DNA from: Candidatus Latescibacterota bacterium
GTDB taxonomy: Bacteria; Latescibacterota; UBA2968
Assembly (NCBI GenBank): GCA_965204375.1
Contig: OZ241986.1
Coordinates: 4,960,001-5,024,000, forward strand
Reading direction: 5' to 3'
Length of the DNA stretch: 64,000 nt
Numbering within the stretch: the first letter of the stretch is position 1; each line of letters begins with the position of its first letter. Positions 381-51,700 of this stretch are shown one piece after another. A program made the position numbers and the translations under genes. The notes beneath the pieces are model-generated. The model searched no databases. It saw only the letters and a list, made by a program, of their open reading frames with translations, and had not been told where the DNA came from.

Positions 381-1388
381 CTAAAACGCCCCTGTCCTCG
401 ACTCGTATTTTGTCGGTTTGCCCAATGTGCGCCCATCGCTCATAACCCAGTGTGCAACCCACGAGACGATTTTTTCAACGGGAACCCGCGGTGCGCCCAT
501 CTCCTCAAACAGCACCCCTGCATCACCCAATAGCGCTGTCTCGCGCTCTTCGCCTTCAAACACGGGATCAATATCAAAATGCTCGCCCAATTGCAAAGCC
601 AAATTGCGCACCGACAACACATCTCTACCCGTCATATTCACCACGCGTGCGGGACATGCACAAAACGGAAACATCCGCGCCAAATACGCATTCGCATCGC
701 CCTGCCAGATCTGATTGACATAGCCCATAGACAGATCAATAGGCGTCTCGGATTTAATCTTCTCGGCAATATCCAAAATGATGCCATAGCGCAACTCAGT
801 CGCGTAAAACAAACGCACAATTGCCAGAGGCGTTTGATTCTCTTTGCAATAAAACTCGGCAAGCCGTTCACCGCCCAGCCGGGACATGGCGTATTCGCCA
901 ATCGGATTGACAGCAGCATCCTCCTGAGCACCCGACCCTGTCACCGAAGCAAATTCGTAAACATTCCCAGAAGATACATAAACAATGCGAGAATCTGGAA
1001 ATTGTTGCATGACTTTTGCGGGTAATACCGCATTCATCGCCCAGATCAATGGCTCATTGCCTGTTGCCCCAAACTTATGTCCGGCCATTAAATAGAGATA
1101 CGGCACGCGAGGCAACCGCGCCAGCCCTTCATCGTCCAGCAAATCGCACTTGATCGTCGCAATACCCCGCGACTCCAGATCATCGCGATCCAGCGGATTG
1201 GAAAACCGCGACACGCCAATCACCTCATCTGCGCCAGCGCGCAGTAGCAACTCTGCCAAAGTCGGTCCCATCTTTCCCGCGATACCCAAAATCATCACGG
1301 GACCATCTAACTTTGACACAGCCTCGACCACTTCGGGCGATGGGGTCGTCATCTGATCGATCAATTCTTCTTCTGTTTTAATCACCAT
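381..1388 (-). CDS. NAD-dependent epimerase/dehydratase (extended SDR)
   Basis: GxxGxxG (GIAGKMG), SSGNVY and YxxS(R) motifs. Start moved to ATG 1388 behind GGAGAG. Confidence 0.85.
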   Translation of the reverse strand: MVIKTEEELIDQMTTPSPEVVEAVSKLDGPVMILGIAGKMGPTLAELLLRAGADEVIGVSRFSNPLDRDDLESRGIATIKCDLLDDEGLARLPRVPYLYLMAGHKFGATGNEPLIWAMNAVLPAKVMQQFPDSRIVYVSSGNVYEFASVTGSGAQEDAAVNPIGEYAMSRLGGERLAEFYCKENQTPLAIVRLFYATELRYGIILDIAEKIKSETPIDLSMGYVNQIWQGDANAYLARMFPFCACPARVVNMTGRDVLSVRNLALQLGEHFDIDPVFEGEERETALLGDAGVLFEEMGAPRVPVEKIVSWVAHWVMSDGRTLGKPTKYESRTGAF

Positions 1389-1415
1389 AGTCGTTCTCTC
1401 CCATGGATACACAGC

Positions 1416-1546
1416 CGAATCTACGAATCTACGAATCTACGAACCCCGCCCATCCTCCCAAAATCTGTGTGTATCTCCATTCGTCTATTCGTCTATTCGT
1501 CTATTCGTCTATTCGTCTATTCGTCTATTCGTCTATTCGTCTATTC
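1416..1546. repeat. Two opposed 8-bp tandem arrays: (CGAATCTA)x3 at 1416-1443 and (ATTCGTCT)x8 at 1479-1546
   Basis: Read directly. The units are imperfect reverse complements sharing ACGAAT/ATTCGT. Confidence 0.9.
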
Positions 1547-1617
1547 TCTTGACTTCTATCCCATCAAATAATAGGTTTGAGTCACAACCATAACGAACCT
1601 CAAACCACAACAGATTT

Positions 1618-3393
1618 ATGGCCTTTATCAAACAAATCTACGACCTGCTCGAAGGTCGCCGTCTCTTTATGGCATGCTGCATCGCCTGTGGACTTATTTT
1701 TGCATCGGCCAATCTCATCCCACCATTGCTCATCCGCAAACTCATCCAGTGGCTCACCGAAGCAAAACCCGCAGGGGACCTCATAGAAGTCAGCCTCTTA
1801 CTCCTTGGGATTTACCTGCTTCGCGGTGTCTCCCGTTATGGTTATGGCTTTTTTTCCCACGTCACTGCCTATCGCGTGATGCACGCACTTATGACGCGCG
1901 TGTACAAGCACCTGCAAAACCTATCCCATAGCTTTTTCAATCGGCAGCGCACCGGCAATCTCATGGCCCGATCCATCAACGATATCGAAGCCATCGAAGA
2001 CTTTATCGCACACGGCATACCCGAAACCGCGCTCGCCACGGTTATCCCCATATCCATGGTCGCCGTACTCTTTTACCTCAATCCGGAACTCGCCCTCATC
2101 GCCATATTGCCCATCCCGCTCACGGCATTTCTCGTATATCGCTATGTATCCAAAGTGCGTGCCATGTGGCATGCAGTACGCGAGCGGCTCTCTGAACTCG
2201 CCGCCCTCGTACAGGATAACATGTCGGGCATTGCCGTCATCAAATCATTTGCTCGCGAGCGGGAATGCGCCCGTCAGGTAACCCACCGCAGCGCCACCTT
2301 TCACGACCGCTTGATCAAAGCCAACACAGTCTCGCTCCTGCCCGCTGGCATCATCGAAGCCACAGGTGGACTGGGCATTGTACTCGTCATCTGGAGCGGT
2401 GGCAATATGGCCCTCAGCGACAGCATCTCGGTAGCTGATCTATTTGTCTTTATTGTCTATATGGGCCACATCTACCAGCCTTTTTTGCAACTGGCGTCTT
2501 TTAACGATGTATTGCAAAAAGCCGCCGCCAGCACAGACCGCGTTTTTCAACTCCTCGCTATCCGTCCGGAAATTACCGACGCGCCCGGTGTCACCGTGCC
2601 CAAAACCATCACATGGGATATCCATATCGACGCACTCACCTTTGGATATGATCCCAACACACCCGTCTTGCAAGACATCGACCTGCACATTGACGAAGGA
2701 GATATCCTCGCACTCGTCGGGCCCACGGGAGCGGGCAAATCAACCCTTGCCAACCTCTTGCCCCGATTTTATGACCCCCAACAGGGCGCGGTTCGCATTG
2801 GCGGATATGACCTGCGCGATCTACCCCTCTCTTTTGTGCGCCAAAATATCGCCTCAGTCCTTCAAGACGTCTTTTTATTTCACGGCACAGTATATGAAAA
2901 TCTGATCTTTGGTCGTCCAGATGCGACCGAACGCACAGTTCGAGAAGCCGCACAAGCAGCCAATGCCCATGCCTTTATTCGCGACCTGCCCAAAGGATAT
3001 GACACCGTGATTGGAGAACGAGGCGTGCGATTATCCGGCGGTGAAAAACAACGCCTCTCCATAGCCCGAGCACTGCTTAAAGACGCCCCCATACTCATCC
3101 TTGATGAAGCCACATCTTCTGTTGACGTTGAAACCGAAGCACTTATTCAAGAAGCCCTTTATCGCCTCACGCAAAATCGCACCACCCTCGTCATTGCCCA
3201 TCGCCTCTCCACTGTGCGCCGGTCGCCCACCATTGCTGTAATCGACGAAGGGCGCGTGGTCGAAACGGGCAACCACGGTTCCCTCATTGACCGAGATGGA
3301 CTCTATGCGCGCATGGTTCGGGCGCAAGACCTCACGCGCAATGGAGAAATACTATCGCGCATTGCAACCCGCGAGTCGCAGGTCGCGGATTAA
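1618..3393 (+). CDS. ABC exporter, fused permease/ATPase (MsbA/Sav1866-like)
   Basis: N-terminal TM domain, Walker A GPTGAGKS, signature LSGGEKQR, Walker B ILILDEATS, H-loop IAHRLS. Confidence 0.92.
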   Translation: MAFIKQIYDLLEGRRLFMACCIACGLIFASANLIPPLLIRKLIQWLTEAKPAGDLIEVSLLLLGIYLLRGVSRYGYGFFSHVTAYRVMHALMTRVYKHLQNLSHSFFNRQRTGNLMARSINDIEAIEDFIAHGIPETALATVIPISMVAVLFYLNPELALIAILPIPLTAFLVYRYVSKVRAMWHAVRERLSELAALVQDNMSGIAVIKSFARERECARQVTHRSATFHDRLIKANTVSLLPAGIIEATGGLGIVLVIWSGGNMALSDSISVADLFVFIVYMGHIYQPFLQLASFNDVLQKAAASTDRVFQLLAIRPEITDAPGVTVPKTITWDIHIDALTFGYDPNTPVLQDIDLHIDEGDILALVGPTGAGKSTLANLLPRFYDPQQGAVRIGGYDLRDLPLSFVRQNIASVLQDVFLFHGTVYENLIFGRPDATERTVREAAQAANAHAFIRDLPKGYDTVIGERGVRLSGGEKQRLSIARALLKDAPILILDEATSSVDVETEALIQEALYRLTQNRTTLVIAHRLSTVRRSPTIAVIDEGRVVETGNHGSLIDRDGLYARMVRAQDLTRNGEILSRIATRESQVAD

Positions 3394-3394
3394 A

Positions 3395-3458
3395 GCGGTG
3401 AGACGTAAGACACCCCGCCTCTTGCCTTTCTTCGTGTCCCTTCGTGTCCTTCGTGGAT
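3395..3458. repeat. Short intergenic repeats (GCGGTGAGACGTAAGAC and about 3x TTCGTGTCC)
   Basis: 3395-3411 matches the reverse complement of 56111-56127 at 16/17 positions. CTTCGTGTCC-type tandem at 3430-3458. Confidence 0.6.
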
Positions 3459-3468
3459 TACCTCCCGC

Positions 3469-4977
3469 CTATTGAATTTTCGCCCAATCGGGCATCACCC
3501 CGAGTTCAATACCCAGCACAACGCGACCAACAACAGCAATCGCAGCAGTAATCATCACCGCTCCTATCAAATTCAACCCTACGCCCACGCGCGCCATATC
3601 GCGCATCGCAATTCTATCCGTGCCAAACACAATTGCATTGGGCGGCGTAGCTACCGGCAACATAAACGCACAAGAACACGACAACGTGGCTGGAATCATC
3701 AGCAACAATGGATTGAGACCTACAGCCACAGATAACGCCGCCAAAACCGGAAGAAACATCTCTGCCGTTGCCGTATTGGAAGTCAACTCTGTCAAAAAAG
3801 TCATCATTACACACAAACCACCGACCAAAAATAGAGGATGCAAGCGCCCCATACCCTCTAACTGCTGCGCGCACCAGAGCGACAACCCCGACTCCTTAAA
3901 CCCACTTGCCAGAGCAAATCCACCGCCAATCAGCAACACAATATGCCAGGGCACGTTGCCAGCCGTTTGCCAATCCATCACTCTGGATTTCGCACCATCT
4001 CGCGCGGGTACGACAAATAAAATCAAAGCCATTGCCATAGCAACTGACCCATCGGTTATCAATCCGCCAGATTCGAAAAACTGAGACCAGCCCGGCAGCG
4101 TCCAATCGCCAATTTGAATGGGGCGTCTCGACAACCACAACAGCGCCAACAGCACAAAATCGGCCAGCACGATCTTCTCGGCAAATGACATTGGCCCCAA
4201 CTCGGCATATTGCGTTCGCACCACACTCAGATCAATATCATCGCCGCGACCGCGAATACCAAAAACGAGACAAAGCGCGCCCCACGCACAAACGAGCATC
4301 ACGCATGCCAGAGGCAGAGCAAACGCAAACCACGTCGCAAACGAAATCTCGGGAACCTCTGAAAAATGAATCGACAAAATCCTCACAAAAGACAAATTGG
4401 TCGGCGTACCCACAAGCGTTGCACTCCCACCAATTGAAGCCGCATAAGCCACCCCCAGAAACACCGCCGTGCCAAAAGAACCAGATGCCACACCCTGCTC
4501 TTCCATTCTAACCACAATAGCAAGTGCAATAGGCACCATCATCATCGTTGTTGCCGTATTGGAAATCCACATGGACAAAAACGCCGTTACCAGCATAAAA
4601 CCCGTCAGGATACACCGGGGACACCCTCCAAAAAGGAGCAGCAAGCGCAGGGCAATTCGCCGGTGTAAATTCCAGCGCTGCATGGCCAGTGCCACCATAA
4701 AACCACCGACAAACAAAAAGATAATGTGATTCAAATAAAGTGGCGCAACCTCTTGCCCGCTCATAATACCCAGCAGGGGAAACAGCACAACGGGCAACAG
4801 TGCCGTCGCAGCCAAAGGCACGGCCTCTGTCATCCACCAAACCGCCATCCAGCAGGCCACACCTGCCGTATGTGTTACCTCGGGATGTCCCGGCTTGAGG
4901 TCTCCAAAAACCGTGACACTCAGCCCAATTATCGGACCGAGCCACAGCCCCCAGCGTTCTATTTTTTTATTCAGCAT
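3469..4977 (-). CDS. SLC13/DASS family Na+-coupled anion (dicarboxylate/sulfate) symporter
   Basis: Two SNT motifs (ISNTAT, TSNTAT), GTPTN and ATPPNA loops, many TM helices. Confidence 0.9.
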   Translation of the reverse strand: MLNKKIERWGLWLGPIIGLSVTVFGDLKPGHPEVTHTAGVACWMAVWWMTEAVPLAATALLPVVLFPLLGIMSGQEVAPLYLNHIIFLFVGGFMVALAMQRWNLHRRIALRLLLLFGGCPRCILTGFMLVTAFLSMWISNTATTMMMVPIALAIVVRMEEQGVASGSFGTAVFLGVAYAASIGGSATLVGTPTNLSFVRILSIHFSEVPEISFATWFAFALPLACVMLVCAWGALCLVFGIRGRGDDIDLSVVRTQYAELGPMSFAEKIVLADFVLLALLWLSRRPIQIGDWTLPGWSQFFESGGLITDGSVAMAMALILFVVPARDGAKSRVMDWQTAGNVPWHIVLLIGGGFALASGFKESGLSLWCAQQLEGMGRLHPLFLVGGLCVMMTFLTELTSNTATAEMFLPVLAALSVAVGLNPLLLMIPATLSCSCAFMLPVATPPNAIVFGTDRIAMRDMARVGVGLNLIGAVMITAAIAVVGRVVLGIELGVMPDWAKIQ

Positions 4978-42113: not shown

Positions 42114-42143
42114 ATCCGCAGATGGACGCAGATGGACGCAGAT
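42114..42143 (+). repeat. (GACGCAGATG)n short repeat, copy 1
   Basis: ATCCGCAGATGGACGCAGATGGACGCAGAT; related copies at 47741-47800 and, inverted, at 51641-51700. Confidence 0.85.
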
Positions 42144-42159: not shown

Positions 42160-42894
42160 GTGACGACTGGCGAGCTGAGCGGACTGATCACTAACTCCCG
42201 AAAGCTATACATGAATGAAGCTGAAACCAAATATCGGTCAACTGGATTGCCTTTTGTCACCTTAAAGCTGGCGCAAACACTGGACGGCAACATCGCCACC
42301 TGCACGGGCGACTCGAAGTGGATCACATCAAAAGCATCGCGTGTGCGCGGGCATCAACTTCGCGCAGAAGCCGACGCAATTCTGGTCGGGCGCGGCACTG
42401 TGATGGCCGACGACCCGGAATTATCCGTGCGATATGTCGATGGATGTAGCCCGACAAAAATCGTTCTGGATTCTCAGCTAAAAATTGGACTAAACGCCAA
42501 AATTTTTAGCGGGGCACCTCTGATTATAGCAACCGCTGAAGAAGTGTGCAAAAAACGGATGAAAGAACGAAAAAAAAAAGGAGCGCAGGTCTGGCAGTTG
42601 CCAATACTGAATGGTCAAATAGACTTGAAGGCGGTCTTGCAAAAAGCCGCCCTATCGGGATTGCAACACGTCCTGATTGAAGGCGGCAGTCGCGTGGCTG
42701 CATCGGCATTGCGCCTGGGCCTGGTAGATCGAATAGCCGCATTTGTCGCACCCAAAATCTTGGGCGCGGGAATACCCGCAATCGGATCATTAGATATTGC
42801 TTCAATAACCGATGCAATTGCACTCGAAAACGTGAAAGTCGAATCCATCGGCGATGATTTTCTATTCACTGCTCGCGTTGCGAAACCGCACTGA
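42160..42894 (+). CDS. ribD: RibD C-terminal reductase domain only (no deaminase domain)
   Basis: TGLPFVTLKLAQTLDG, SKWITS, DAILVG.GTV.ADDP, LIEGG. No HAE/PCxxC deaminase motifs upstream. Start uncertain (42160 or 42211). Confidence 0.8.
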   Translation: MTTGELSGLITNSRKLYMNEAETKYRSTGLPFVTLKLAQTLDGNIATCTGDSKWITSKASRVRGHQLRAEADAILVGRGTVMADDPELSVRYVDGCSPTKIVLDSQLKIGLNAKIFSGAPLIIATAEEVCKKRMKERKKKGAQVWQLPILNGQIDLKAVLQKAALSGLQHVLIEGGSRVAASALRLGLVDRIAAFVAPKILGAGIPAIGSLDIASITDAIALENVKVESIGDDFLFTARVAKPH

Positions 42895-42925
42895 TTGATC
42901 ATGTCGTAAATCAGGGAGACGCAAA

Positions 42926-43249
42926 ATGGCAACCGATGAACAACTGAAAAGTTATGCCGAATCGCTCCCACCCATTTATCGGGAAATCTTGACTGCCTTT
43001 CCGCGCCTGGAACCCGGTCGCAAACAGGGCTACGGTCTCGCTTTTCAAACTCTTGAAGTAGATTTGAAAAGCTATAACTTAGGAGAGATCGTCCAGGCAT
43101 GCGAGCAGCTACAGCAACACGAACTTGTAGAGGTTAAACACAAAATATTTGTGCATCCGACGCAGCTTGGCGAGCACCTGATCGGTATCATTACTGGCCA
43201 TAACGCGCCGGTAATCCAGGTGCCGGAATTGCCTGCACTGCCAACTTAG
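42926..43249 (+). CDS. Hypothetical 107-aa winged-helix-like protein, paralog 1
   Basis: GGAG RBS; helical core then LVEV...FVHPTQLG, resembling a wHTH wing and T..G motif; 75/107 identical to the next ORF. Confidence 0.75.
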   Translation: MATDEQLKSYAESLPPIYREILTAFPRLEPGRKQGYGLAFQTLEVDLKSYNLGEIVQACEQLQQHELVEVKHKIFVHPTQLGEHLIGIITGHNAPVIQVPELPALPT

Positions 43250-43259
43250 GAGATACAAA

Positions 43260-43583
43260 ATGGCAACCGATGAACAACTGAAAAGTTATACCGAATCGCT
43301 CCCACCCATTTATCGGGAAATCTTGGCCGCCTTTCCGCGAATAGCTCCCAGCCGCGGACCGGGCTACGGGCAAACATATCAAACTCTTGAAGTAGATTTG
43401 GAGAGCTACAGTTTTGGAGAGATCATCCAGGCATGCAAGCTGCTAGAGCAACGTGACATAGTCGAAATTAAACACACTAATTTTGTGTGTCCAACAGAGC
43501 TTGGGGAGCGCCTTATCGGTATCATTACAGGTCAAAGTGCGTTGGAAGTTCGAGTGCCGGAGTTGCCGGCACTGCCAACGTAA
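43260..43583 (+). CDS. Hypothetical 107-aa winged-helix-like protein, paralog 2
   Basis: AGGAG RBS overlapping the previous stop; colinear with paralog 1. Confidence 0.75.
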   Translation: MATDEQLKSYTESLPPIYREILAAFPRIAPSRGPGYGQTYQTLEVDLESYSFGEIIQACKLLEQRDIVEIKHTNFVCPTELGERLIGIITGQSALEVRVPELPALPT

Positions 43584-43593
43584 AGGAACTGTC

Positions 43594-44202
43594 GTGTTCT
43601 GGCAACTTCAGTCCTTCCCTGTTTGTACCCATCATGTATTTCTGTCCTACTGTCGCGAAGATATGGAATGGCTGGCAGATCCTTTGAGTGAGGCATTGCG
43701 CCGTGAAGACATCAGTCCTTGGCTTGATCGCCATGATTACCCCTATGGTCGCACTTCACTCGCGGCACTCCGTGACGGAGTGTTGAAATGTCGTCATACT
43801 GTGTTCCTCGTAACTGATGCGATGCTGGATCAGCCGCGAGGCTGGGGGATAGTGGAACTCGCCTGGGCCGATCTATTGCAGGAGAATTTGCACATGGCTA
43901 GCGGTGTCCTACAAAACATTATGCTGCCGCTACTTTTCCTCCCACGAGACGATGAGCGACTCTTGCGTTCAGTCTGGCAATCGATCCGCGATCGCGCTGC
44001 CTTCCATAGTCCACAGGATGGAGACGCTATAGATTGGGCCGTTCGTCAGATTGACTTATTTATCCGGCGAGAAGAAAAACGAGGACAGGATATTTTTAAT
44101 GGGATTCGGTACGATTCCCTTACATACGCTCGCTTAAAGGCCCAACCAGGACTTATCGAACGATTTACGGCTCAGCACCCCAAGCCCGCACCCGTTCAGT
44201 AA
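43594..44202 (+). CDS. TIR-domain protein
   Basis: VFLSY..ED, PWLD and W...EL (WGIVELAW, putative catalytic Glu). GTG at 43594 behind AAGGA. Confidence 0.8.
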   Translation: MFWQLQSFPVCTHHVFLSYCREDMEWLADPLSEALRREDISPWLDRHDYPYGRTSLAALRDGVLKCRHTVFLVTDAMLDQPRGWGIVELAWADLLQENLHMASGVLQNIMLPLLFLPRDDERLLRSVWQSIRDRAAFHSPQDGDAIDWAVRQIDLFIRREEKRGQDIFNGIRYDSLTYARLKAQPGLIERFTAQHPKPAPVQ

Positions 44203-44214
44203 GGCTAATTGCTT

Positions 44215-44859
44215 ATGTTTACTGGCATTGTAGAGGAAGTGGGAACAATTCGGCATATTGAATCGCGCGCGGGTTATCAGCGCACGACCATAGCAGCAAA
44301 GCAAGTGCTCAATGGCGTAAAAATAGGCGACAGCATTGCCATTGAAGGTGCGTGCCATACCGTCGTACATTTTGATGCCGACACATTTGCGATCGAATCC
44401 GTAGCAGAAACACTGCAAAGAACCACATTGGGTGATTGCCGCGTGGGCAGCCGCGTTAATTTAGAGCGATCTTTAAAACTCGGCGACCGCCTCGACGGTC
44501 ATCTCGTTGCCGCACACGTCGATGGCGTGGGGCGCGTGACAGGCCGCACAGAATCTCCCGATCAAATTTTATTTGAGTTTGAAGTACCGCTTGAGTTGGC
44601 CCCTTATATTGCTGAAAAAGGCTCTGTCACCGTCAACGGAATCAGCCTGACAGTAGTTTCAGTAACAGACCGCACTTTTTCGATCGCGGCAATTCCGCAC
44701 ACGCTAAAAGTTACGACATTATCGGAAAAATATCCGGGTGACCGGGTAAATATCGAAGTGGATATGATCGCGCGTTACCTGGAGCGATTGGTGCAACCTG
44801 GGAATGGAAAAAATATGCTCACGGAAGATCGCATTGGGGCGATGATGAGCGACCGTTAA
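44215..44859 (+). CDS. ribE: Riboflavin synthase (alpha chain)
   Basis: [33 protein letters not shown]. Confidence 0.95.
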
Positions 44860-44876
44860 TTTACAGAGAGATATAT

Positions 44877-46127
44877 ATGGGCAAAATCGCAACAATCGAA
44901 GACACCCTCGAAGATATTCGAGCGGGAAAAATCGTCATTGTGGTCGATGACGAAGACCGGGAAAATGAAGGCGACTTCATCATGGCCGCGGAAAAGGTCA
45001 CACCTGAAGCCATTAATTTTATGGCGCGCCATGGACGCGGACTGATCTGTCTGCCCGCAACCCCCGACCGCCTCAAAGAACTCGACCTGGACATGATGGT
45101 CAATACCAACACAGCGCTTCACGGCACGCCATTCACGGTGAGCATCGACGCGCTCTACGGCGTGGCAACCGGTATCTCCGCACAGGACCGGGCGGAAACC
45201 ATTCGACAATTTGTAGATCCCAAATCGCAGCCTGAAAATTTTGGCCGACCAGGTCATATTTTCCCCCTTCGCGCAATGCCCGGCGGGGTCTTGCGGCGAG
45301 CGGGACACACAGAAGCAGCGGTAGATCTGGCGCGTTTGGCCGGCCTGTATCCCGCCGGTGTACTGTGTGAAATACTAAATGAAGACGGCACCATGGCACG
45401 TTTGCCACAGCTTTTGGAAATTGCCGACCAATTTGGCTTGAAAGTGACGACCATTCACGATCTAATTGCCTATCGCCGTCGTTTCGAAAAACTGGTGCGC
45501 TGTGTCGAGCAAGTAGATATGCCCACGCGATTTGGCGTATTTCAATTACACCTGTATGAAAGCGACGTAGATGAACGCGAACACGTCGCACTGGTAAAAG
45601 GCGATCTTTCCGGCGATGCACCCGTAATGGTGCGGATGCACTCCGAATGCCTGACGGGCGACTCACTCGGCTCATTGCGCTGTGACTGCGAAAAAAACTT
45701 ACACTCAGCACTCGAGATGATCGAAAAAGAAGGACGCGGGGCACTGGTGTATATGCGGCAGGAAGGGCGAGGTATTGGCCTGCGGGCAAAATTACACGCG
45801 TACAAACTGCAGGAAGAGGGATATGATACCGTAGAGGCCAACCTGAAACTCGGATTTAAAATGGACGAACGAGACTATGGCATTGGCGCGCAAATTTTGT
45901 CGGATTTGGGAATCAGCAAAGTCGCACTCATCACCAATAATCCATCAAAGCGCGTGGGTCTGGAAGCGTATGGAATAGAAATTATAGACAGCATCCCGGT
46001 CGCCATTCAGGTCAACAAATGGAACCTGTCATATATGCGAACCAAGCAGGAAAAAATGGGGCATTTGTTTAAAGAGGACGAATTGCAATTAGGCGATGAA
46101 GGAGATAGTGATGCCCAAAGTTTATGA
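44877..46127 (+). CDS. ribBA: Bifunctional DHBP synthase / GTP cyclohydrolase II
   Basis: [38 protein letters not shown]. Confidence 0.96.
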
Positions 46128-51640: not shown

Positions 51641-51700
51641 TTCACATTTCCCAGCCCTTCTTCATCTGCGTCCATCTGCGTCCATCTGCGGATCTCACTT
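51641..51700 (-). repeat. ~60-bp dispersed repeat, copy 3 (inverted)
   Basis: Reverse complement reads AAGTGAGATCCGCAGATGGACGCAGATGGACGCAGATGAAGAAGGGCTGGGAAATGTGAA. Confidence 0.85.

What the first reader, a model, noticed from the sequence alone, without database searches (positions are those of the whole stretch)
42891..44218. Candidate new defence or toxin-antitoxin module: two winged-helix-like paralogs plus TIR, inserted at the ribD/ribE junction
Seen: three tightly coupled genes (10-nt gaps, each with an RBS) interrupt the riboflavin operon. They are bounded by a degenerate 14-bp direct repeat, CTGATTGATCATGT (42891-42904) and CTAATTGCTTATGT (44205-44218), 11/14 identical; removing the insert leaves ribD TGA, 6 nt, then ribE ATG. 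The TIR protein keeps VFLSY, WLD and the W...E glutamate. No ThsA-like effector, integrase or transposase is adjacent. Established: bacterial TIR domains are NAD+-cleaving enzymes acting as signal makers (Thoeris) or effectors in antiphage systems. Inference: a minimal wHTH+TIR system in which the small proteins are nucleic-acid or phage sensors, or antitoxins, expressed from a housekeeping operon. It does not match a system I recognise.
Basis: partly seen in the sequence, partly recalled or inferred. Interest (0 to 1): 0.78.

Follow-up and report, generated by a model that had tools for sequence, protein, structure and literature searches.

The report
Mobile TIR plus winged-helix gene pair
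A small mobile cassette encoding a likely NAD-destroying TIR enzyme and two copies of an unnamed winged-helix partner has been inserted into the riboflavin operon of an uncultured bacterium, and it looks like an undescribed toxin-antitoxin or phage-defence pair.

Summary
Three co-directional genes sit between ribD (reductase-only) and ribE, each 10 nt from the next: small A 42926-43249, small B 43260-43583, and TIR 43594-44202. In 14 of 15 same-genus genomes ribD abuts ribE. Only this genome and its closest relative carry the 1.3-kb insert, which is flanked by an 11/14 duplicate of the ancestral junction.

The insert is a promoterless copy of a conserved two-gene module:
- a 105-125 aa acidic winged-helix protein with no Pfam, PADLOC or PHROG match (164 clusters among 1.84 billion representatives);
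- a 200-aa AbTir-like TIR with invariant Trp84 and Glu88.

The pairing is close to obligate:
- 27 of 35 small-gene loci have the TIR adjacent;
- 10 of 10 loci of a subfamily only 30-45% identical do too;
- 22 of 22 TIR loci have the small gene adjacent.

TIR genes decay (5 of 22) or disappear while the small gene stays intact, and the small gene has duplicated in tandem at least three times. No third gene is conserved.

My best reading (confidence 0.5) is a TIR-NADase toxin or abortive-infection effector held in check by a dedicated winged-helix antitoxin-like protein. NADase activity, toxicity, binding and phage protection are all untested. I rate it a new variant of a known kind.

The parts
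42160..42894 (+). ribD, reductase-only (RibD C-terminal domain). This is the upstream host gene, and its stop TGA lies at 42892-42894.
   Evidence: Pfam RibD_C 2.2e-48 with no deaminase domain. TIGR00227 scores 176 bits.
42891..42904 (.). Left copy of the 14-nt repeat, CTGATTGATCATGT. It equals the ancestral ribD-stop/ribE-start junction.
   Evidence: 13/14 identical to the empty site of G006. 11/14 identical to the right copy.
42905..44218 (+). Inserted promoterless cassette of 1314 bp (equivalently 42891-44204).
   Evidence: Missing in 14 of 15 same-genus genomes. Similarity to other cassettes starts about 15 nt before the first ATG and stops at the TIR stop codon.
42926..43249 (+). Small winged-helix protein A (107 aa, P0001).
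   Evidence: AF2 pLDDT 80.8 with a winged-helix topology. VIA-align Z 10-12 to TubR, MarR and the Rio2 wH domain. No Pfam, PADLOC or PHROG family. dN/dS 0.10 against G015.
43260..43583 (+). Small winged-helix protein B (107 aa, P0002), a tandem paralog of A.
   Evidence: 70% identical to A. The duplicate arose within the Latescibacterota clade. dN/dS 0.42 from 5 synonymous and 7 non-synonymous changes.
43594..44202 (+). TIR-domain protein (202 aa, P0003, GTG start). It is the putative NADase toxin or effector, with the catalytic-type Glu at residue 88.
   Evidence: Pfam TIR_2 3.7e-11. AF2 pLDDT 89.3. Foldseek best hit AbTir TIR with 3AD, 7uxu, E 2e-6, TM(target) 0.83. Profile hit to Cat1 1e-6 and to AbTir. 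W84 and E88 invariant. dN/dS 0.18.
44205..44218 (.). Right, degenerate copy of the 14-nt repeat, CTAATTGCTTATGT. It supplies the ribE start.
44215..44859 (+). ribE (riboflavin synthase), the downstream host gene. ribBA, ribH and nusB follow.
   Evidence: Pfam Lum_binding 1.4e-48. DHBP_synthase + GTP_cyclohydro2, DMRL_synthase and NusB.

Best explanation
The insert is a horizontally mobile two-gene module that has lost its own promoter and is read as part of the riboflavin operon. Here it has three genes, because the small gene was duplicated.

The 202-aa protein is an AbTir-like TIR enzyme that most likely cleaves NAD+. I infer it is harmful to the cell when active. The 107-aa proteins are acidic winged-helix proteins with a conserved proline-rich C-terminal tail. 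They most likely act at the protein level to keep the TIR silent, in the manner of a type II antitoxin or immunity protein.

Loss or displacement of the small protein, for example during phage infection or after loss of the cassette, would free the TIR. The TIR would then assemble, deplete NAD+ and stop growth, as in abortive infection or addiction.

What is shown: the insertion, the domain identities, the near-obligate pairing, the co-divergence, purifying selection, and the asymmetric decay. What is inferred: NADase activity, toxicity, direct inhibition, the trigger, and the defence role.
For: 1. TIR identity and an intact catalytic-type motif.

2. Pairing in both directions:
- 27 of 35 genome loci found with the small protein have the TIR directly adjacent on the same strand. 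One more has fragments of both genes and 7 have no TIR match.
- 10 of 10 metagenome loci of a subfamily only 30-45% identical to P0001 are followed by the same TIR clade: 6 full-length, 1 truncated copy, 1 internally deleted, 1 stub, 1 cut by the contig end.
- 22 of 22 TIR-clade loci in 21 of 168 Latescibacterota genomes have a small gene adjacent.

3. Co-divergence: pairwise identities of the two proteins correlate at r = 0.85 over 29 distinct pairs, and 0 of 2000 Mantel permutations reach this.

4. No third gene family recurs in the 35 loci.

5. Antitoxin-like asymmetry. The TIR is disrupted in 5 of 22 loci while the small gene stays full-length. It is absent, or reduced to a remnant, next to intact small genes in L021, L024, L028, L036, L038, L041 and L043. 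The reverse, a TIR without a small gene, was not seen.

6. Independent tandem duplications of the small gene in at least three lineages: window/G015, L027 and L045.

7. Gene order is small then TIR in 24 of 27 loci, with 10-nt gaps or overlap.

8. The cassette arrived without its upstream region. Promoter-level autoregulation therefore cannot be what restrains the TIR here.

9. The family is acidic and its 'recognition' helix is not basic.

10. All three genes are under purifying selection against G015: dN/dS 0.10, 0.42 and 0.18, compared with 0.095 for ribE and 0.13 for ribD.

11. Some copies lie in defence or TA islands holding a PD-T4-4-like ATPase, DpdA, a GajB-like helicase, PIN-TPR-GreABC, HipA and a ParE-like gene.

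12. In an RNA-library run, contigs bridge ribD to A, A to B, B to TIR, and TIR to ribE. DNA carry-over is not excluded.
Against: - No activity, toxicity, binding or phage phenotype has been measured.
- The winged-helix fold is best known from DNA-binding regulators (TubR and MarR are the top structural matches), so a purely transcriptional role is not excluded.
- Gene order is reversed (TIR then small) in 3 of 27 loci.
- No fused small-TIR protein was seen. All 150 listed hits of the exhaustive profile search are 206 aa or shorter.
- Here the cassette sits in a housekeeping operon, not a defence island.
- It was not found in viral contigs. That is neutral for defence but gives no phage link.
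- Related genomes are not independent, so the locus counts overstate the number of independent events.
- Many bacterial TIRs are signal makers rather than NAD+ depleters.
Confidence: 0.5

Rival explanations
1. Sensor-effector defence pair. The small winged-helix protein is a positive sensor or adaptor that recognises a phage component and switches the TIR on, rather than an inhibitor that must be removed.
For: The strict pairing and co-divergence fit any obligate partnership. The conserved C-terminal VPxLPxP(T)W tail could be a docking peptide. Two-gene TIR systems with a non-TIR partner exist: BcTir/Tpr (abstract read).
Against: Intact small genes persist where the TIR is lost or broken, and the TIR was never seen alone. 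Repeated tandem duplication of the small gene fits a dosage need for an inhibitor better than for a sensor. A stand-alone 200-aa TIR with no autoinhibitory domain would need something to restrain it.
Confidence: 0.2
2. The small protein is only a DNA-binding transcriptional repressor of the module, as with regulators attached to many defence systems. The TIR is controlled in some other way.
For: The fold matches MarR, TubR, ArsR and HxlR regulators (Z 9-12; Foldseek TM about 0.6). The gene usually sits first in the operon.
Against: The family is acidic (median net charge -4 over 69 members). The helix in the recognition position is 8% basic and 21% acidic, and only R19, R32 and K33 are conserved basic residues. 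In the window the cassette was inserted without its upstream region, so no cognate operator or promoter came with it, yet all three genes stay under purifying selection. There is no Pfam HTH match at E <= 1.
Confidence: 0.15
3. Thoeris-like signalling. The TIR makes a cyclic ADPR-type signal for an effector encoded elsewhere in the genome, and the small protein is accessory.
For: The closest solved TIRs, AbTir and BtTir, are known from recalled literature to make cADPR isomers. There are weak ThsB/ThcB4 domain-level hits. The genome holds a SIR2_2 protein beside another TIR_2 gene about 0.98 Mb away.
Against: No effector family recurs next to the pair in 35 loci. The module moves as a two-gene unit between phyla. 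The NCBIfam ThcB4 score of 24.6 is far below the 220 cut-off. The distant SIR2 gene has its own TIR neighbour.
Confidence: 0.08
4. A metabolic accessory of riboflavin or NAD metabolism, with the position in the rib operon reflecting function.
For: It is co-directional with the rib genes, tightly spaced among them, and probably co-transcribed with them.
Against: Only the window genome and G015 have the pair in the rib operon. Of the 35 loci found with the small gene, only one (L012, which is G015) has ribD next to it. 14 of 15 same-genus genomes have an uninterrupted ribD-ribE junction.
Confidence: 0.02

Closest known systems
Bacterial TIR NADases of the AbTir/BtTir type and Thoeris ThsB
   Same: TIR_2 domain, the same fold (7uxu TM 0.83 on the target) and a conserved W...E catalytic-type motif.
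   Different: No ThsA-type effector is conserved nearby. The protein is a bare 200-aa TIR with a helical C-terminal extension, and it is always paired with a small winged-helix protein that no Thoeris type has. The family-level scores are domain-only.
NAD+-depleting toxin-antitoxin pairs such as RES-Xre (NatR-NatT) and MbcT-MbcA
   Same: The logic is the same: a small, usually upstream, HTH-type partner gene next to an NAD+-destroying enzyme gene, with sporadic and mobile distribution. The review passages read list SPN, TNT, MbcT, Tne2 and RES as NAD+-consuming toxins with antitoxins.
   Different: Here the toxin fold is TIR, not RES, MbcT or TNT. The partner is an unnamed acidic winged-helix family, not Xre. 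Neutralisation is not shown. NatR-NatT was seen only as a search listing.
SpbK, a single-gene TIR abortive-infection protein of Bacillus subtilis
   Same: A TIR NADase acting as a direct effector that depletes NAD+ on phage sensing (search listing and start of abstract only).
   Different: SpbK carries its own extra domain and is triggered by a phage protein. It has no separate small partner gene.
BcTir/Tpr two-gene system of Bacillus cereus
   Same: A two-gene operon with one TIR protein and one non-TIR partner, which protects against phage and lowers NAD+ (abstract).
   Different: There the partner is a large TPR protein that is itself the NADase. Here the partner is a 107-aa winged-helix protein with no enzymatic domain.
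MarR/TubR-type winged-helix proteins
   Same: Fold (Z 10-12).
   Different: No sequence-family membership. The protein is acidic with a non-basic recognition helix and has a conserved Pro-rich tail.

Membership tests
TIR domain (Pfam TIR_2 / TIR) | Sequence match above the curated cut-off | tested here: met
   TIR_2 scores 44.0 bits against a cut-off of 28. TIR scores 21.3 against 21.3.
TIR domain (Pfam TIR_2 / TIR) | Flavodoxin-like TIR fold | tested here: met
   AF2 model pLDDT 89.3. 56 PDB matches at E <= 1e-3, all listed ones TIR domains, the best being AbTir 7uxu.
Catalytic TIR NADases | Conserved catalytic glutamate in the W/S-x-W-x-x-E helix | tested here: met
   W84 and E88 are invariant in 20 homologs. 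The motif aligns with W..E.E of Cat1. The assignment of this Glu as catalytic is recalled knowledge.
Catalytic TIR NADases | NAD+ cleavage activity | not testable with these tools
   This needs an enzyme assay.
Thoeris | ThsB-type TIR together with a ThsA-type effector (SIR2/SLOG, Macro or TM) in the same locus | tested here: not met
   No third gene family recurs in 35 loci. The window neighbours are rib genes. ThcB4 scores 24.6 bits against a cut-off of 220.
Type II toxin-antitoxin module | Two small, adjacent, co-directional genes inherited as a unit and sporadically distributed | tested here: met
   The family was found in 2 of 401 sampled Planctomycetota genomes, one of them the query's own, and in 21 of 168 Latescibacterota genomes.
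Type II toxin-antitoxin module | Orphan antitoxins and decayed toxins occur, but no intact toxin lacks an antitoxin | tested here: met
   5 of 22 TIRs are disrupted beside intact small genes, and 22 of 22 TIR loci have a small gene. 7 of 35 small-gene loci have no TIR match.
Type II toxin-antitoxin module | The toxin is toxic and is neutralised by direct binding of the antitoxin | not testable with these tools
   This needs expression, rescue and pull-down experiments.
Type II toxin-antitoxin module | The antitoxin binds operator DNA and autoregulates | tested here: inconclusive
   The protein has a winged-helix fold but is acidic with a non-basic recognition helix. The cassette here lacks its own upstream region.
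MarR/ArsR-type wHTH regulators | Sequence membership in a described HTH family | tested here: not met
   No Pfam HTH hit at E <= 1. No NCBIfam, PADLOC or PHROG family. The best PDB profile hit has E 0.034.
Known defence systems in PADLOC v2 | All components match the models of one system | tested here: not met
   The small proteins have 0 hits at E <= 1. The TIR has only domain-level hits: SAVED_TIR, PDC-S66 and ThsB.
Transposon, IS or integron cassette | Adjacent transposase or integrase | tested here: not met
   None in 38.3-51.1 kb. A target-duplication-like 14-nt repeat is present.

The most novel reading that the evidence does not exclude
This is the first toxin-antitoxin or abortive-infection family built on a TIR NADase. 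A bare 200-aa TIR is kept inactive by a dedicated, non-DNA-binding, acidic winged-helix protein that docks through a conserved Pro-rich C-terminal tail. The pair spreads between phyla as a promoterless cassette that plugs into housekeeping operons by duplicating a short target.
Probability: 0.35. Interest if true: 0.72.

Novelty: new variant of a known kind. Interest (0 to 1): 0.6.

Why it matters
TIR NADases are central to immunity in bacteria, plants and animals. How a minimal TIR is kept silent is a live question. A 107-aa protein that restrains, or switches on, a bare TIR would be a compact natural regulator of TIR assembly. It would also add a TIR-based member to the NAD+-depleting toxin-antitoxin and abortive-infection repertoire.

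The partner family is unnamed: 164 clusters in 1.84 billion representatives, with no Pfam, PADLOC or PHROG model. Current defence-finding tools therefore miss the pair.

The insertion into an essential biosynthetic operon, with empty sites in 14 of 15 congeners, is a clean example of a promoterless conflict cassette borrowing housekeeping transcription.

Tried and rejected
- Complex prediction of TIR with the small protein gave no verdict (score 0.09, mark 0.32). It counts neither for nor against binding.
- Rfam over the whole window found no family, so no FMN riboswitch was detected.
- The promoter and terminator scan of 41.5-47.5 kb found no excess over shuffles.
- Viral contigs held no relative of the TIR clade or the small family with the patterns used.
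- PHROGs gave nothing for the small proteins and only weak domain hits for the TIR.
- Earlier findings of this scan returned nothing.
- The protein atlas returned only unnamed clusters (0.95, 0.91). The nearest named ones are HTH or MarR-like and score below 0.9, so they are leads only.
- I first read the AAA_15/AAA_21 ATPase plus a 160-172-aa protein downstream of the small gene in L036 and L041 as a partner swap. I now think it is a neighbouring PD-T4-4-like system in a shared defence-island hot spot, and the two genomes are related.
- I considered gene conversion between A and B at the 5' end. The first 90 nt are also the most conserved part against the single-copy relatives (0.86-0.92), so it is simply a conserved region.
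- Loci searches with the broad alignments A4 and A5 failed because no stretch was conserved enough. The narrower A6 worked.
- Literature searches found no paper describing a TIR toxin with a cognate small antitoxin or a wHTH+TIR pair. Subscription journals and supplementary files were not searchable.
- Coverage gaps of the RNA run X5 at 43322-43509 and 44732-44900 are not interpretable.
Full report
**What is there**

On the + strand the window carries a riboflavin operon: ribD (42160-42894, RibD_C domain only), ribE (44215-44859), ribBA, ribH and nusB. Three extra genes lie between ribD and ribE.
- Small A: 42926-43249, 107 aa.
- Small B: 43260-43583, 107 aa, 70% identical to A.
- A TIR protein: GTG 43594 to 44202, 202 aa.

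Both gaps inside the cassette are 10 nt, and each start is preceded by a Shine-Dalgarno-like purine run. The TIR passes the Pfam TIR_2 cut-off (44 bits against 28). It contains VFLSY, WLD and W84...E88.

**It is an insertion**

ribE was found in all 15 same-genus genomes searched. In 14 of them ribD directly abuts ribE, with TGA + 6 nt + ATG in 11 of the 14. Only the closest relative, G015 (ribE 95% identical), shares the 1.3-kb insert.

The left 14-mer, CTGATTGATCATGT, is 13/14 identical to the uninterrupted junction of G006. The right 14-mer, CTAATTGCTTATGT, sits exactly where the rest of ribE (TTACTGGC...) resumes. As a free-floating repeat, 11/14 is not remarkable: 138 of 2000 shuffles reach it. 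In this fixed register it is unlikely by chance, at about 4e-5. I read it as a decayed target duplication.

Similarity to the cassettes of other Latescibacterota (L013-L015) begins about 15 nt before the first ATG and ends at the TIR stop codon. What was inserted is therefore a promoterless block of ribosome-binding site plus genes. No integrase or transposase is nearby. No Rfam family and no excess of promoter-like or terminator-like sites was found.

In one RNA-library run, assembled contigs bridge ribD to A, A to B, B to TIR, and TIR to ribE. This is consistent with read-through transcription. Contigs cannot show a single transcript, and DNA carry-over is not excluded. A low-depth contig in run X1 shows the empty-site form from a co-occurring relative.

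**What the proteins are**

The TIR model is confident (pLDDT 89.3). Its best match is the AbTir TIR domain in its substrate-analogue-bound form (7uxu, E 2e-6, TM 0.83 on the target), followed by BtTir, TcpB and other TIRs. A profile of 20 homologs finds Cat1 (1e-6) and AbTir by sequence. W84 and E88 are invariant. A helical extension (residues 145-191) follows the TIR core.

The small protein has no Pfam, NCBIfam, PADLOC or PHROG family. Its model (pLDDT 80.8) is a winged helix followed by one more helix and a disordered, proline-rich tail. Structural matches are generic winged-helix proteins: the Rio2 N-terminal domain, TubR and the MarR family, at Z 10-12, with Foldseek TM about 0.6.

The family is acidic. 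The median net charge is -4 over 69 members. The helix in the recognition position is 8% basic and 21% acidic, and only R19, R32 and K33 are conserved basic residues. The tail carries a conserved VPxLPxP motif, extended to PLPxPTW in a distant subfamily.

An exhaustive profile search of 1.84 billion representatives finds only 164 clusters. All 150 listed are 45-206 aa, one of them a fused tandem of two copies, and none is fused to a TIR.

**The pair is a conserved unit**

- Loci found with the small protein: of 35 genome loci (Latescibacterota, several Planctomycetota orders, one labelled Gemmatimonadota), 27 have this TIR clade directly adjacent on the same strand. The order is small then TIR in 24 and the reverse in 3. 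One locus has fragments of both genes and 7 have no TIR match; one of those 7 keeps an 82-aa TIR C-terminal remnant.
- Distant subfamily: ten of ten metagenome loci of a subfamily only 30-45% identical to P0001 are again followed by the same TIR. Six are full-length, one (L084) is a truncated copy, one is internally deleted, one is a stub, and one is cut by the contig end. Two contigs carry two modules side by side.
- Loci found with the TIR: searching the other way, the TIR clade occurs in 21 of 168 Latescibacterota genomes, and all 22 loci have a small gene adjacent.
- Co-divergence: pairwise identities of the two proteins co-vary (r = 0.85, 29 pairs, 0 of 2000 permutations).
- No other partner: no third gene family recurs.
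- Rarity: the family was found in 2 of 401 sampled Planctomycetota genomes, one of them the query's own genome. It was not found in viral contigs.

Related genomes are not independent, so these counts overstate the number of independent events.

**Clues to mechanism**

1. The asymmetry points to an inhibitor. TIR genes are frameshifted, truncated or carry a stop in 5 of 22 loci while the neighbouring small gene is intact. Small genes persist with no TIR. No TIR was seen without a small gene. This is the pattern expected if the TIR is harmful without its partner.
2. The small gene has duplicated in tandem independently at least three times: window/G015, L027 and L045. This suggests that dosage of the small protein matters.
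3. In the window the cassette has no upstream region of its own, yet all three genes remain under purifying selection against G015. dN/dS is 0.10, 0.42 and 0.18, compared with 0.095 for ribE and 0.13 for ribD. Control of the TIR here therefore cannot rest on a cognate promoter or operator.
4. The acidic surface argues against classical DNA binding.
5. One clade of the family sits in a variable hot spot next to an SMP-30-like gene. That hot spot also holds a PD-T4-4-like ATPase (4.2e-35), DpdA (1.6e-97), a GajB-like helicase, a PIN-TPR-GreABC gene, HipA, a ParE-like gene and a Mutator transposase. That is defence and TA company.

Taken together, I favour a TA-like or abortive-infection module: a TIR NADase toxin and a winged-helix antitoxin acting on the protein. 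My confidence is about 0.5. The rivals are a positive sensor, a pure repressor, and a Thoeris-like signal maker with a remote effector.

**Comparison with known systems**

The module works like NAD+-depleting TA pairs, but the toxin fold differs. A review lists SPN, TNT, MbcT, Tne2 and RES, none of them TIR (passages read). It also resembles TIR effectors such as SpbK (listing only) and the two-gene BcTir/Tpr system (abstract), but the partner differs.

It fails the Thoeris membership test because it has no ThsA-type effector. PADLOC v2 has no model for the partner. Three full-text searches found no description of a wHTH+TIR pair or a TIR toxin with a cognate antitoxin. Supplementary files and subscription journals could not be searched, so the pair might be listed in a large-scale prediction table that I could not see.

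**Verdict**

The unit is two genes plus a duplicate, and the partner is more likely an antitoxin-like protein binder than a nucleic-acid sensor. I rate the novelty as a new variant of a known kind and the interest at 0.6.

Noticed in passing
window 42116-42143 (+), 51664-51691 (-), and about 47761 (+): A dispersed short tandem element of 10-nt units (GCAGATGGAC, repeated 2-5 times) lies in the gap between the 686-aa gene and ribD. The 16-nt core occurs 66 times in the genome, against 0 for the reversed control. In four sequencing runs this spot has depth of about 1000-4000, with loose ends on both sides.
   Followed up: partly
window 42160-42894: ribD consists of the reductase (RibD_C) domain only, and the deaminase half is missing. 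Relatives align from residues 3-18 onward, so this is a trait of the lineage and not a truncation caused by the insert.
   Followed up: partly
window 42953-42971 and 44239-44257: A 19-nt inverted repeat (89% complementary) lies between the 5' coding region of small A and the 5' coding region of ribE. Small B carries a near-identical copy. Both arms are in conserved coding sequence, so this may be coincidence, or it may be a long-range RNA pairing.
   Followed up: no
G000:C1:5985119-5986998 (L112, L114), outside the window: A 1166-aa ORF with a SIR2_2 domain lies next to a 363-aa ORF with TIR_2, which makes it a candidate Thoeris-like locus. Two further TIR_2 genes lie at G000:C1:5718678 and 5258216.
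   Followed up: no
L036, L038, L040, L041 (related Latescibacterota genomes): A variable defence-island hot spot sits beside an SMP-30/gluconolactonase-like gene. It holds a PD-T4-4-like ATPase with a 160-172-aa partner, DpdA, a GajB-like UvrD helicase with a PD-(D/E)XK nuclease, PIN-TPR-GreABC, HipA, a ParE-like gene and a Mutator transposase. L036 carries three near-identical copies of the small gene, one of them with an internal TAG.
   Followed up: partly
L084 and L085 (metagenome contigs): Two complete small+TIR modules of different subclades lie within about 3 kb of each other.
   Followed up: no
window 42435-44851 against runs X4 and X5; G000 against G015: A second strain carries the same insert. 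Its cassette differs by only 0.6-0.7% (2/360, 4/599 and 3/415 letters), while the adjacent ribD piece differs by 5.6% (29/517). Between G000 and G015, dS is 0.07-0.10 for small B and the TIR, against 0.25-0.30 for small A, ribD and ribE. This hints at recent recombination or a sweep of part of the cassette.
   Followed up: no
P0036 (206 aa, metagenome protein): A single protein made of two tandem copies of the small winged-helix domain. It is the fused counterpart of the tandem gene pair seen in the window.
   Followed up: no
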